This document shows, piece after piece, positions 21,001-64,000 of a stretch of 64,000 nucleotides of DNA. Source of the DNA: Leucoraja ocellata (lineage: Eukaryota); contig JAWMAR010000030.1 in the NCBI GenBank assembly GCA_036785375.1, forward strand, positions 5,146,001 to 5,210,000. The letters run 5' to 3'. Numbering within the stretch: the stretch's first letter is position 1; each line of letters opens with the position of its first letter. Position numbers: made by a program.

Positions 21001-24000
21001 TCAAACACTACACCTCTAAACAAATCTCCATTTCTGTGCTTCCATCTGAAGACTAGCACCAATGTCCAAATTCCTGCTCTGCCATTCAGCAGGAAGTCAG
21101 CATCTTCAGGTTTCAAAATACAATCGCTGCTGTTAATAATCAATATAATCATAGCATGTTGGTTTTACCTATTAAATGATTTTCAGTAAAATATGAACGT
21201 TAATTATATTTTTTGTCCTCAGATTCTGAACACATGCACGTTGGAGGGACTCCCAGCCTTACTCCGCTCTCTACACCAGTGAAGATGAATGTCGGGCCAG
21301 ATGTTAATCAGCCAGTTGTACAGTCCCCTTTAATTCTGCACCCTCTTACTTCATCACTTCAAGTTGGTGTGCCACCTATGCCTTTACCAATTATACTTAA
21401 TCCTGCTTTAATTGAAGCATCATCTCCTGTCCCACTGTTGTCCCCACCACGTCCTGCCAACACGTCGACGGCATCTGAAGTGAACTAATTCCTCTAGATT
21501 AGGAAAGGATCAGTTTATTTAACACGTTCTTCTGTTTTGTATTATGACAATATACTTCTTTTTGTCAAGCTTTTTTAAAAATAATTTCTCACCTTTTCGA
21601 ACCAGTCACTGACTCTAATGTTCAATTTGTGTGAAGAAATCATGCATCCATCACTGCAAAGAATGTATTGCTCCAGATACCATTATTTATTTTTGGAGCA
21701 TTAGCCATATTGAGCGCCAAATACTGTCAAACATTCAATGTAGAGTACGACCGAAGGCAAAAGCCATCTGTGTTGCATTGCAATGTTTTATTCATTATCT
21801 GCTCAAGTTATCAATGTTTCTAAAATGCTGTTTGCCACATTATAATGAAAATGTGTTGTTTGGCTGTAAACTAACATTAAGTTATCTGTATAGTAGCCCT
21901 TTATTTAAGTGATATGTTTCAAGTAATTTTCAGAAGATAAGTGACAATGTGAAGGGCTACAACAGGACCCTGATACTCAGGTTGCATAATACAAAAGAGC
22001 AAGAGATAAACAACCTTGTTACAGTAATAAAATGCATGATTTTTTTTAAATATCATGCAGCAGGATGGATGTTTTACCTAACCCAAATGTGATAGTCAAA
22101 GTATTCCACCCTTTGAAACCTCACGTTAAGTTCCATTTCATAGTAGCTTATTTCCTTTCCCAGGACTTGGCTTGTTTTTGTTGTCAAATGTAAGTTTGTC
22201 AACTTTAGATTTTCACCCCAATTAATAATTTTTGTTCAATGGTTTTGGTTTGTATTTCCAATTGTCTGCAGTTTCTAGGAAGTTTCTATACTGCATATTA
22301 AATGGAAACCTAGTGTAAAACATTAAGTGTATAAATATAAATGAATTTGCAGTGGTTACGATTTTCACTTGTACCAATATATTTAGAGATGTGAAATTGT
22401 AATATAAAAAAAATAATGCCGGTGGATATGTTGAGCTTGCTTTACATTCCTGTCCTGTTTGCTTCCCATATAGCCTGAATTAGCTGTAAATGACCCAAAA
22501 CATAAATAGGCATGAAGGCCAAAGCTTGTGTAATTTGAGACCAACAGAATCTATATTCAAAGTCTTTGTTACTTTGTTCTAAATTTTGTACATTTCACAA
22601 AGATTTTAATTTAATGTGTGCAAAATGGCAACAAAACTTTCTGTGGTTATGGTAAAACTTAAATGATCTGTCCCACATTCTCTGGGTGAGAATGGGGGAA
22701 GGATAGTAGACATAGGTAATGTATATAGAAAGAATGGTTTAAAGAAAATTTAAATGTACTTTTTACAGTAATAAATATCAAAATGTAAAGAAATTTAGCT
22801 GTGGTTTATTGATTTAACTAGGTGATCTGTGAGGAGTTACAGCAAGTAGCTTTCTTTATTGAATTTATATTGAAAAAGCAAATTAAATTATACATCACAT
22901 TTATGCAAAATCTTATTCTGAAACAAATTGTCTGGGCCTGGAAGGTCACAATGGCACGTTCCAGCTAAAAGACAATTGAAACAGACTAGTGGTGCCCATG
23001 CAGTGTTAAATCTTTGGGAACATTTAAGGTGAATTTTGTCAACTTGCTGTAAACATGTCTTGTGTCATGGCCAACAGACCTCAGTTGAATGAATTATAAT
23101 AATTACGATCCAAGGAATTCAAGTTAATAAATTACTTGAATAATGCACAGCATTTCAGAATAGTTCTAAATGTTCCATTACGGTAGGCACACATGACATT
23201 TTGTCTAAACATCTAGCCCAAATAAATGTTATGGTTACATTTAATTCCTTCAGCAACATGGCATAATTTTCCCAACTTGAACATCTCCATTAGGAAAAGA
23301 TGCTTCATTTCAGACTTATGATCTGTTCTTATCTACTTATGCTACTTATTGAGTACCTCCAAAATATGCAGTATTTGATATCTCTTTACAAATGTGCATG
23401 ACAAGGTGATTAATCTATATTTATTTATTTAAAAGTTGTCATCGTCCATGTGTACAACTTCAATGAACAAAGAGAACAAACATGTGCTTTACTCTGCCCT
23501 TTAATTATAAGAGGAAATTAAAAGTTGGTCACGCACAGCCAGGGTTCCACTGACACAAGGCAGCTGGTCAGCCCACTGTTCATGCCAACTTCCATTTAGG
23601 TTCCCTTGTGATCTTACAACTTGTTCTAATATGCCCAGTAACTCGCCCTTGTTACTTTTTACCATTTATCTACAATTGAGATTTAAAAAAAAAGATTAGC
23701 ACGTGTAGACGGGATGTTGGGAATCCAACTGCTTACAAGAGAGTAGCATCCAAGGTAGATAGAAAAGCTAAATCATTCATTTAAACCCACTTGGGTAAAA
23801 CTGGAAACTCGTGCACAGGCTATAGGTTCAAATTGCAGCCACATTATTCTCATGGTCTTATTGGACAATGACCCTCCTTCCACAATATTTAACATACTTT
23901 AAAGAGCCCATGTGTTTCTTTAGAATTACTTGCCTCAGAACATCCAGATATTTTTTTTATAGTCTTTTTAAAACTTGTCACATATGAAATCACACAGCAA

Positions 24001-63000: not shown

Positions 63001-64000
63001 ACCATTCACCTTATCTATGCCCCCCGCGATTTCATATACCTCGCTAAGTATTCTTTCTACCTTAATTACATCCTTCTGATAGCTAGGATTCCAGAACGGC
63101 AATCCCATTACTCCCAGTATGGTCTCTCACATTTTGTAATGACATCAACTCAATCTCAATATTTTGAAGGCAAGATATGAAGGCAAGTGCACCATATGGT
63201 TACTTCTACAGCTCCACACAGCTGAATAAGTAGTAAAAAATGCATTGACCATAGAACTCCGTTGTTGAATTGCAATTAAAATATAGATTAGAGGCACGTT
63301 GCCTTTGATATTTCGATACATTATTGCCTTGTTCTCCCATGATGCCTACTCTGCAAAGAGGATATTGGGGTAAAATATGAAATCAAACTAGATGTAATTG
63401 AAATATATCTAAAATTAGATTGTTATTCAAAAGTGTCAATGTGTGCATGTTAATATTTCATTTGTTCTGAATATCACAATATTATATTTCAAGCAGATTC
63501 TTCACGCATGACAAAGTACAGCTTTATAAATGCTATAACTAAGCTCAATCAATCACAGCAGATAGCTATAAATGTTTTAACAAGTATAAATTACTACTTG
63601 CCCCCAGCTACATCCAAAGGTCCATTGGATTTCCGGAGCTCTTTCACACCATCTAAAAACTCCTTTCCACCTGCTTTTTCCAATGCGTTGCCTGAAATTA
63701 CAATTATTATTCAGAAGATTCATAGGCTATTGGTAGATCTGCTTAAAGTGGTTAAACTAATGAATATGTAACTGGAACTCCATTTGCAAACTTCAAAAAA
63801 GGCATAATTTGATCATTCAAATTGGAAGATTACTCTATGCAATAATTCCCATTTATATTATGACTTTAATTTTCCTGGAGATCCCAAGCAGTTTTCATAC
63901 AAAACAGATGATAAGGATACAGTGGCCTCCATAATGTTTGGGACAAAGACCCATCATTTATTTATTTGCCTCTGTACTCCACAATTTAAGATTTGTAATA

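What the first reader, a model, noticed from the sequence alone, without database searches (positions are those of the whole stretch)
21531..64000. Tandem duplication has produced two apparently intact macroH2A2 genes
Seen: the block starting 43 bp after the GBF1 stop (21531) is repeated in the same orientation from 49754, an offset of 28.2 kb. Copy A is a complete 382-aa ORF. The three visible exons of copy B keep frame and splice sites. Known: jawed vertebrates normally carry one MACROH2A1 and one MACROH2A2 gene, both highly conserved. Inference: this lineage has an extra macro-histone paralogue, possibly the start of a larger array. Private TE insertions in each copy and several percent intron divergence argue against an uncollapsed haplotype.
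Basis: partly seen in the sequence, partly recalled or inferred. Interest (0 to 1): 0.85.

Follow-up and report, generated by a model that had tools for sequence, protein, structure and literature searches.

The report
Skate-specific tandem duplicate of macroH2A2
This skate sequence really does carry two neighbouring copies of the macroH2A2 histone-variant gene, one conservative and one fast-changing; public automatic annotation already lists both, so it is a modest addition to a well-known gene family.

Summary
The repeat is real. Block 21531-31078 recurs in direct orientation at 49754-64000, with 4.7% mismatches (406 of 8705 aligned sites) plus private insertions. The genes lie on the minus strand, tail-to-tail with GBF1, whose stop is at 21486-21488.

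Copy A (CDS 37872-24463) has 8 open exons summing to 1149 nt, that is 382 aa plus stop. The window shows 3 constitutive exons of copy B plus one 42-nt alternative exon, all open with intact splice sites.

Both genes are already in RefSeq as 'core histone macro-H2A.2-like [Leucoraja erinacea]'. P0001 matches A and P0004, a full-length 391-aa model, matches B. Amblyraja radiata has an A-type orthologue sharing 15 of 18 scorable A-specific changes, which rules out an uncollapsed haplotype.

In the tree, A and B are sisters inside macroH2A2 (99/97), with Rhinoraja outside. This points to a duplication within the skate lineage after Rhinoraja split off.

Copy A evolved about 3 times faster than B (20 versus 6 unique changes, p about 0.006-0.009). 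A 3.1-kb tract around exon 7 is homogenised (1.7% versus 6.3% mismatch), indicating gene conversion.

No evidence for a larger array was found. Expression of A is untested.

The parts
1226..21488 (+). 3' part of GBF1: 16 TBLASTN-matched exon segments, residues 1115-1926 of the A. radiata protein P0124. Stop codon TAA at 21486-21488.
21531..31078 (-). Visible part of duplicated block, copy A. It holds the 3' flank and UTR, exon 8, the alternative exon, exons 7 and 6, and part of intron 5.
24463..37872 (-). macroH2A2-like copy A, CDS span. Exons: E1 37872-37701, E2 37526-37420, E3 35774-35544, E4 34039-33929, E5 32976-32877, E6 30279-30190 (GC donor), E7 28521-28347, E8 24625-24463 (TAG stop, protein ends ..LDI). 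Total 1149 nt, or 382 aa.
   Evidence: 100% identical to RefSeq P0001 on every exon except for 3 extra residues in E3.
26284..26325 (-). Copy A version of a 42-nt alternative micro-exon with an AG acceptor and GT donor. It has one R-to-W change relative to copy B.
26364..29452 (.). Low-divergence tract in copy A, partner B 57727-61235. Mismatches are 52 of 3060 sites against 354 of 5645 outside. It covers exon 7 and is interpreted as gene conversion.
   Evidence: Fisher p = 3e-25.
38000..49753 (.). Transposon-rich spacer between the copies. It holds Pao-retrotransposon fragments (45275-45520 minus strand, 48839-49237 plus strand), an ALKBH8_N-like match (47927-48190) and inverted repeats 44646-44988 / 49358-49726.
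42600..44000 (.). CpG island with observed/expected CpG of 0.9-1.3 against a window median of 0.36. It lies 4.7-6 kb upstream of the copy A start codon and is a candidate promoter of copy A (inference).
49754..64000 (-). Duplicated block, copy B, containing the 3' part of macroH2A2-like copy B. Exons: E6 63691-63602 (GC donor), E7 60305-60131, alternative exon 57685-57644, E8 55900-55735 (TAA stop, protein ends ..LDIK). The 5' exons lie beyond the window.
   Evidence: 100% identical to RefSeq P0004 in E6, E7 and E8, and in the 15 residues of P0004 (323-337) that span the alternative-exon insert.
52131..55177 (.). Private 3.05-kb insertion in copy B, in the 3' UTR region. It has internal 238-bp direct repeats (52376-52613 / 54892-55118, 82% identity).
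61402..63048 (.). Private 1.65-kb insertion in copy B, intron 6. It is weakly similar to 8971-9083 in a GBF1 intron, so it is a dispersed repeat.
30385..30926 (.). Private 542-bp stretch in copy A, intron 5, of which 57 bp (30495-30551) do align to copy B at 63799-63855. Positions 30683-30904 are 67.5% similar to 13727-13506 in a GBF1 intron, so it is a dispersed repeat.

Best explanation
A genuine tandem segmental duplication of the macroH2A2 gene arose in the skate lineage. It happened after the split from Rhinoraja and before the Leucoraja/Amblyraja split. The duplicated unit is at least 28 kb. Its left breakpoint lies 43 nt past the GBF1 stop codon.

Both copies encode full tripartite macroH2A2 proteins: an H2A fold, a lysine-rich linker and a macro domain. 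Copy B, distal to GBF1, stayed close to the shark and ray consensus. Copy A, next to GBF1, took a burst of mostly conservative substitutions, gained lysine-rich triplets in the linker and lost its last codon. It then changed little between two skate genera, which suggests it is kept as a working, diverged paralogue.

Non-allelic gene conversion has since re-homogenised about 3 kb around exon 7.

Shown here: the duplication, the intact reading frames, the asymmetric rates, the mosaic divergence and the orthologue in a second genus. Inferred: the function and expression of copy A, the promoter assignment, and the mechanism and date of the duplication.
For: - **Repeat structure and breakpoint:**
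- **Exon anatomy and open frames:**
- **Family assignment, exon by exon:**
  - Histone_H2A_C at 1.1e-12 in E3.
  - Macro at 7e-14 (A) and 6e-14 (B) in E7.
  - E1 is closest to the macroH2A histone domain 1u35 at 6.7e-21.
- **Public proteins:** P0001 equals A and P0004 equals B, both listed with a longest contig of 19.86 Mb.
- **Tree of 20 proteins:**
  - All skate sequences sit inside macroH2A2 (100/100).
  - (L. erinacea A, A. radiata A) has 100/100 support.
  - A plus B has 99/97 support, with Rhinoraja outside (94/87).
- **AU tests:** B grouped with Rhinoraja is rejected at p = 0.018. B grouped with Rhinoraja and Pristis is rejected at p = 0.010.
- **Relative-rate test:** 20 A-unique versus 6 B-unique changes, p about 0.006-0.009 with the Pristis or Rhinoraja outgroup. 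15 of 18 scorable A-unique changes are shared with A. radiata.
- **Later constraint on A:** the A proteins of the two genera are 99% identical over 346 columns. The GBF1 C-terminal segments are about 95% identical between the window and A. radiata (my sum over the 16 segments).
- **Conversion tract:** 1.7% versus 6.3% mismatch, p = 3e-25.
- **Ancestral position:** GBF1 and macroH2A2 share contig lengths in many species. They carry consecutive locus tags in Synaphobranchus and Albula.
Against: - **Copy B is incomplete in the window.** Its 5' exons and the right-hand breakpoint are outside, so B's completeness rests on RefSeq model P0004 and on P0003.
- **No transcript evidence for copy A.** Its cluster lists only ncbi, uniref and nr sources. 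B-type proteins also come from short transcript-like contigs.
- **Weak constraint signal in the 3' exons.** A versus B gives dN/dS of 0.67 on tiny counts (9.3 nonsynonymous, 3.7 synonymous).
- **Signs of possible decay in A:**
  - The A. radiata A-type model P0002 skips exon 6.
  - Exon 6 of A carries 3 replacements in 30 residues.
- **Caveats on timing.** Gene conversion could make the A+B sister grouping look younger than the duplication. The AU-test groups were named after the tree was seen.
- **No read-depth or long-read check was possible.**
Confidence: 0.8

Rival explanations
1. Copy A is a decaying duplicate on its way to becoming a pseudogene. It is still open by chance, with relaxed constraint rather than a new role.
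For: - It evolves about 3 times faster.
- dN/dS is 0.67 in the shared exons.
- It has lost its terminal codon, AAG to TAG.
- Exon 6 has a replacement density near the neutral level, and the A. radiata model P0002 skips it.
- No transcript-like contig protein of A-type was seen.
Against: - All 8 exons are open and all splice sites are usable.
- Most A-specific changes are conservative and predate the genus split (15 of 18).
- After that split, A changed little: 99% identity over 346 columns. That is less change than in the neighbouring GBF1 C-terminus.
- A strong CpG island lies upstream.
Confidence: 0.2
2. The duplication is much older, at or before the origin of batoids. The A+B sister relationship would then be an artefact of repeated gene conversion, and other rays would have lost one copy or have it unannotated.
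For: Gene conversion is demonstrably active at this locus. Seven residues shared by A and B against other elasmobranchs could in principle be conversion products.
Against: - The shared derived residues are spread from exon 1 to exon 8, not confined to the conversion tract.
- Non-coding mismatch outside the tract is only 6.3%.
- No A-type protein from Rhinoraja, Pristis or sharks appeared among the best 120 hits.
- AU tests reject the older topologies.
Confidence: 0.08
3. The two copies are an assembly artefact: two haplotypes or a mis-join laid side by side.
For: The two blocks are colinear and in the same orientation. No read data could be examined here.
Against: - There are 4.7% mismatches (406 of 8705 aligned sites) plus kilobase-scale private insertions.
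- Divergence is mosaic, 1.7% versus 6.3%.
- The proteins are distinct.
- A separate assembly of another genus, A. radiata, carries the A-type with the same derived residues and the same lost last codon.
Confidence: 0.02

Closest known systems
Vertebrate MACROH2A2 (H2AFY2), the single-copy core histone macro-H2A.2 gene
   Same: It has the same tripartite protein: H2A fold, lysine-rich linker and macro domain. It sits in the same clade in the tree (100/100). It has the same neighbour, GBF1. Copy B is 94-98% identical per exon to shark macroH2A2.
   Different: Here there are two genes in tandem rather than one. A review states that mammals have two macroH2A genes, one of them H2AFY2 (PMC6189284, passages read). 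Copy A carries about 20 lineage-specific replacements, a longer linker and one residue fewer at the C-terminus.
macroH2A1 / macroH2A2, the old paralogue pair of vertebrates
   Same: This too is a duplication of a macroH2A gene followed by divergence of the copies.
   Different: That pair is ancient, unlinked and deeply diverged; the two clades are separated by 100/100 branches. Here the copies are adjacent, about 5% diverged in non-coding DNA, and still exchanging sequence by gene conversion. No second copy of exon 5, the position of the macroH2A1.1/1.2 alternative exon (position recalled), was found.
'macro-H2A.2-like' duplicates in polyploid fishes and frogs (for example Cyprinus carpio P0053, Xyrauchen texanus P0085, Xenopus laevis P0036)
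   Same: These are extra macroH2A2 copies in particular lineages, also named '-like' or listed as duplicates by automatic annotation.
   Different: From recalled biology, those lineages are polyploid, so their copies probably come from whole-genome duplication and lie on different chromosomes; I did not test this. The skate pair is a local head-to-tail duplication.
Lineage-specific, fast-evolving H2A variant duplicates (mammalian short H2A variants)
   Same: A histone H2A variant gene is duplicated locally and one copy evolves faster.
   Different: Short H2As lack the macro domain, and as I recall they are testis-specific and X-linked; for PMC5880237 I saw only the search listing (title and start of abstract). 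Nothing here shows germline-specific expression of copy A.

Membership tests
macroH2A (core histone macro-H2A) | N-terminal histone H2A fold | tested here: met
   Pfam Histone matches in E1 (17.6 bits) and E2 (23.9 bits). Each single exon is below the 26.4-bit whole-protein cut-off. Histone_H2A_C in E3 scores 47.9 bits against a cut-off of 20. E1 is closest to the macroH2A histone domain 1u35 (6.7e-21), ahead of canonical H2A (about 5e-15).
macroH2A (core histone macro-H2A) | C-terminal macro domain in the same gene, after a basic linker | tested here: met
   Macro PF01661 at 52 bits in E7 of both copies; the best solved relatives are macroH2A1 and macroH2A2 macro domains (3.5e-23 to 6.8e-21). 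The lysine-rich linker is read directly in E3.
macroH2A2 subfamily (as opposed to macroH2A1) | Groups with macroH2A2 rather than macroH2A1 in a tree | tested here: met
   P0001 (A) and P0004 (B) fall inside the macroH2A2 clade, separated from four macroH2A1 sequences by 100/100 branches. The single exon E7 alone does not discriminate between the two subfamilies.
macroH2A2 subfamily (as opposed to macroH2A1) | Conserved position next to GBF1 | tested here: met
   Copy A lies tail-to-tail with GBF1 in the window. GBF1 and macroH2A2 proteins share contig lengths in A. radiata, Heptranchias, Scyliorhinus, Callorhinchus, Latimeria, Amia and others. They have consecutive locus tags in Synaphobranchus and Albula. 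Adjacency in the other species is inferred, not seen.
Tandem segmental duplication | Two colinear copies, same orientation, adjacent on one molecule, with both breakpoints defined | tested here: inconclusive
   Colinearity, orientation and the left breakpoint (21531/49754) are shown. The right breakpoint and the full length of copy B are outside the window.
Tandem segmental duplication | Not an assembly or haplotype artefact (read depth, spanning reads) | not testable with these tools
   No reads were available. Indirect evidence against an artefact: the level of divergence, the private insertions and the orthologue in A. radiata.
Functional retained paralogue (copy A) | Intact reading frame and splice sites, kept in more than one species | tested here: met
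   One search shows 8 open exons, 7 AG acceptors, 6 GT donors and 1 GC donor. Searches show the A. radiata orthologue with the shared derived residues.
Functional retained paralogue (copy A) | Transcribed and translated | not testable with these tools
   No RNA data were available. Only ncbi, uniref and nr sources are listed for the A-type cluster. The CpG island upstream is suggestive only.
Interlocus gene conversion | Mosaic divergence: a tract much more similar than its flanks | tested here: met
   52 of 3060 mismatches against 354 of 5645, Fisher p = 3e-25; 500-site windows give K2P of 0.006-0.016 inside the tract against 0.054-0.069 in most flanking windows.

The most novel reading that the evidence does not exclude
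Copy A is a third working macroH2A gene specific to skates. After the duplication it went through a short burst of change in the histone fold, linker and macro domain, then settled under purifying selection. It may have its own CpG-island promoter and its own expression domain. That would make it a natural experiment in how a very conserved chromatin protein acquires a new role.
Probability: 0.4. Interest if true: 0.5.

Novelty: new member of a known kind. Interest (0 to 1): 0.35.

Why it matters
macroH2A genes are among the most conserved histone variants. Mammals have two genes encoding three proteins (PMC6189284, passages read).

A local extra copy with asymmetric evolution and ongoing gene conversion is a small but clean case for studying how histone variants diversify. 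It also matters practically. RNA-seq, ChIP and orthology work in little skate must treat macroH2A2 as two loci.

It is not a surprise of principle, because tandem duplicates are common. Both gene models are already in public annotation. Five full-text searches found no paper describing the duplication.

Tried and rejected
- **Cluster listing:** I therefore could not list accessions, isoforms or a B-type protein of A. radiata.
- **Pfam on spacer, insertion and intron ORFs:** of 26 ORFs, 3 gave transposon-type hits at or above the curated cut-off. One gave a sub-threshold chance-level hit (TAF1C_HB) and 22 gave nothing. This includes ORFs in intron 5 that look transposase-like to me by eye (recalled resemblance only).
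- **128-aa ORF inside the conversion tract (27429-27812, minus strand):** no Pfam hit. The Atlas search gave glycosyltransferase-43 look-alikes with recognition 1653 and 147 shared features. Both are below the tool's own reliability marks, so I rejected them as chance.
- **Other scans:** Rfam at gathering threshold returned 0 matches. The tRNA scan returned 0. Tandem repeats showed only a CT-rich array and short two-copy repeats.
- **PDB search with exon 7:** it does not separate macroH2A1 from macroH2A2.
- **Literature:** five searches found nothing on a skate macroH2A2 duplicate. Rivera-Casas et al. 2016 (PMC4939916) is not held. PMC6570772 (passages) has nothing on duplicates.
- **Not used:** Genome contigs, which is bacterial and archaeal only.
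Full report
**Observation.** The window has no N. Self-BLASTN finds seven colinear direct-repeat blocks. A 21531-31078 matches B 49754-64000 at 81-94.5% identity counting indels. The offset rises from 28223 to 33403 because of private insertions:
- In B: 52131-55177, 57748-58112 and 61402-63048.
- In A: 30385-30926 and 24802-24902.

Homology begins exactly at 21531/49754. That is 43 nt past the GBF1 stop (TAA, 21486-21488). GBF1 is confirmed: the last-exon ORF hits GBF1 of A. 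radiata at 96% identity, and many others. Sixteen exon segments covering residues 1115-1926 lie on the plus strand from 1226 to 21485.

**Anatomy.** The macroH2A genes are on the minus strand, tail-to-tail with GBF1.

Copy A has these exons:

| Exon | Coordinates | Note |
|---|---|---|
| E1 | 37872-37701 | start codon at 37872 |
| E2 | 37526-37420 | |
| E3 | 35774-35544 | lysine-rich linker |
| E4 | 34039-33929 | |
| E5 | 32976-32877 | |
| E6 | 30279-30190 | GC donor |
| E7 | 28521-28347 | |
| E8 | 24625-24463 | TAG stop |

The lengths sum to 1149 nt, or 382 aa plus stop. Every exon is open in its phase. All 7 acceptors are AG; 6 donors are GT and one is GC (intron 6, in both copies).

The ORF length is arithmetic on per-exon reads. 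All searches with window sequence were exon by exon. The joined-protein search and fold were left out.

Copy B shows E6 63691-63602, E7 60305-60131 and E8 55900-55735, all open with the same splice sites. Both copies also hold a 42-nt alternative exon (A 26325-26284, B 57685-57644). TBLASTN with full-length relatives finds no other macroH2A piece in the window.

**What the genes are.** Exon by exon, Pfam gives Histone (E1 and E2, sub-threshold for single exons), Histone_H2A_C (E3, 1.1e-12) and Macro (E7 of A at 7.1e-14 and of B at 6e-14). PDB relatives are macroH2A histone and macro domains.

The E7 search returned RefSeq proteins:
- P0001, 'core histone macro-H2A.2-like isoform X2 [Leucoraja erinacea]', 379 aa.
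- P0004, '...isoform X1 [Leucoraja erinacea]', 391 aa. It is listed with the same longest-contig length as P0001, 19.86 Mb.

TBLASTN shows P0001 is 100% identical to copy A on every exon, except that the window has 3 more residues in the 9-nt-repeat part of E3. P0004 is 100% identical to copy B in E6, E7 and E8, and in the 15 residues (323-337) that span the alternative-exon insert. Its exons 1-5 match nothing in the window at 100%, as expected if they lie beyond base 64000.

So the window is Leucoraja erinacea or something extremely close, and both genes are already annotated. P0003, an unnamed 368-aa protein from short contigs (longest 1850 nt), is identical to P0004 over 368 columns. This suggests B is transcribed.

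**Not a haplotype.** Non-coding K2P distance between the copies is 0.049 overall over 8235 sites. There are kilobase-scale private insertions that look like dispersed repeats.

More decisively, Amblyraja radiata has an A-type protein, P0002. It shares 15 of the 18 scorable A-unique residues and the shortened C-terminus.

**History.** In a 20-protein maximum-likelihood tree:
- All skate sequences sit inside macroH2A2 (100/100 against macroH2A1).
- The A proteins of the two genera pair at 100/100.
- A and B together form a clade at 99/97.
- Rhinoraja (94/87) and then Pristis lie outside.

AU tests reject B grouping with Rhinoraja (p = 0.018) or with Rhinoraja plus Pristis (p = 0.010). The caveat is that these groups were chosen after seeing the tree.

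The duplication therefore most likely arose in the skate lineage after the Rhinoraja split and before the Leucoraja/Amblyraja split. I did not date it.

GBF1 and macroH2A2 share contigs in many vertebrates and have consecutive locus tags in two eels. The locus is therefore the ancestral macroH2A2 site.

**Asymmetry.** Relative-rate counts give 20 A-unique against 6 B-unique changes (p about 0.006-0.009 with Pristis or Rhinoraja as outgroup; 0.002-0.011 across all four outgroups tried). Stem branch lengths are 0.054 for A against 0.017 for B.

Most A changes are conservative (M to L, V to I, I to M, S to C, S to A). Others are L to H at the start of the macro domain, E to K and R to F in E6, extra lysine-rich triplets in the linker, and AAG to TAG at the last codon.

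In the shared 3' exons, dN/dS between A and B is 0.67 on very small counts (9.3 nonsynonymous, 3.7 synonymous).

After the genus split A changed little, with 99% identity over 346 columns. The neighbouring GBF1 C-terminus is about 95% identical between the same two sources (summed). I read this as a burst followed by constraint, meaning a retained paralogue. This is inference. Expression of A is untested.

**Gene conversion.** Divergence is mosaic. The tract A 26364-29452 / B 57727-61235 has 52 mismatches in 3060 sites (1.7%), against 354 in 5645 (6.3%) elsewhere (Fisher p = 3e-25). Very clean sub-tracts lie on either side of a more diverged patch, and the 3' one covers exon 7. Interlocus gene conversion is the simplest explanation.

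**Surroundings.** The 11.7-kb spacer is rich in transposon debris: Pao fragments and an ALKBH8_N-like match, plus inverted repeats. It also contains a 1.4-kb CpG island at about 42.6-44.0 kb, with observed/expected CpG of 0.9-1.3 against a window median of 0.36. This is a candidate promoter for copy A.

Three minus-strand poly(A) signals are conserved in both copies about 150-370 nt inside the block. The first plus-strand signal after the GBF1 stop (22026) lies inside the block too. So, by inference, the duplication carried the whole macroH2A2 3' UTR and most of the GBF1 3' UTR.

**What stayed unchecked.**
- Read depth and spanning reads.
- Sequence beyond base 64000.
- RNA evidence for A.
- A B-type gene in A. 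radiata.
- Other skate genera.
- No paper describing the duplication was found in five searches; Rivera-Casas 2016 is not held.

**Verdict.** It is an ordinary kind of event affecting an unusually conserved gene, and both genes are already present in automatic annotation. Interest is moderate to low.

Noticed in passing
window 26284-26325 (copy A) and 57644-57685 (copy B), minus strand: A conserved 42-nt alternative micro-exon adds 14 residues between E7 and E8, inside the macro domain. The same insert is present in the 'isoform X1' proteins of L. erinacea B (P0004), Pristis (P0005) and Scyliorhinus (P0008), so it is shared by sharks and rays. Copy A keeps the splice sites but has one R-to-W change. 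From memory, this junction lies in the phosphate-binding loop of ADP-ribose-binding macro domains; I did not test that.
   Followed up: partly
window 30188-30189 (copy A) and 63600-63601 (copy B), minus strand: Intron 6 uses a GC donor (exon|GCAAGT) in both copies. It is a GC-AG intron that predates the duplication.
   Followed up: partly
window about 35610-35660, minus strand (E3 of copy A): The linker contains a 9-nt tandem repeat encoding lysine-rich triplets. The window has one more unit than RefSeq protein P0001 (382 versus 379 aa) and two more than copy B's protein. This looks like a length polymorphism or an assembly difference.
   Followed up: partly
window 30221-30223, minus strand (E6 of copy A) versus 63633-63635 (copy B): One codon differs at all three bases: TTT (F) in A against CGG (R) in B and in all other species aligned. 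This is a probable multi-nucleotide change. E6 is the most altered exon of A (3 replacements in 30 residues), and the A. radiata model P0002 skips it.
   Followed up: partly
window 42600-44000: A 1.4-kb CpG island with observed/expected CpG of 0.9-1.3, in a window whose median is 0.36. It lies 4.7-6 kb upstream of copy A's start codon. Its ORFs gave no Pfam hit above the curated cut-off, and BLASTN found no other copy in the window.
   Followed up: partly
window 44646-49726: Inverted repeats (44646-44988 / 49358-49726, 76% identity) bracket Pao-type fragments lying on opposite strands. The bracketed region ends 27 nt before the start of copy B's block. Whether this element has anything to do with the breakpoint is unknown.
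   Followed up: no
protein hits: GBF1 and macroH2A2 are listed with the same longest-contig length in many vertebrates. They have consecutive locus tags in Synaphobranchus kaupii (SKAU_G00161450/60) and Albula goreensis (AGOR_G00115280/90). This is probably an old conserved gene pair.
   Followed up: partly
window 46403-46597: A CT-rich tandem array with periods of 22 and 61 produces long proline-rich pseudo-ORFs on the plus strand.
   Followed up: no
window 27429-27812 (A) and 59207-59590 (B), minus strand: A 128-aa open frame is kept in both copies inside the conversion tract. It has no Pfam hit and only unreliable Atlas look-alikes, so it is probably chance.
   Followed up: yes
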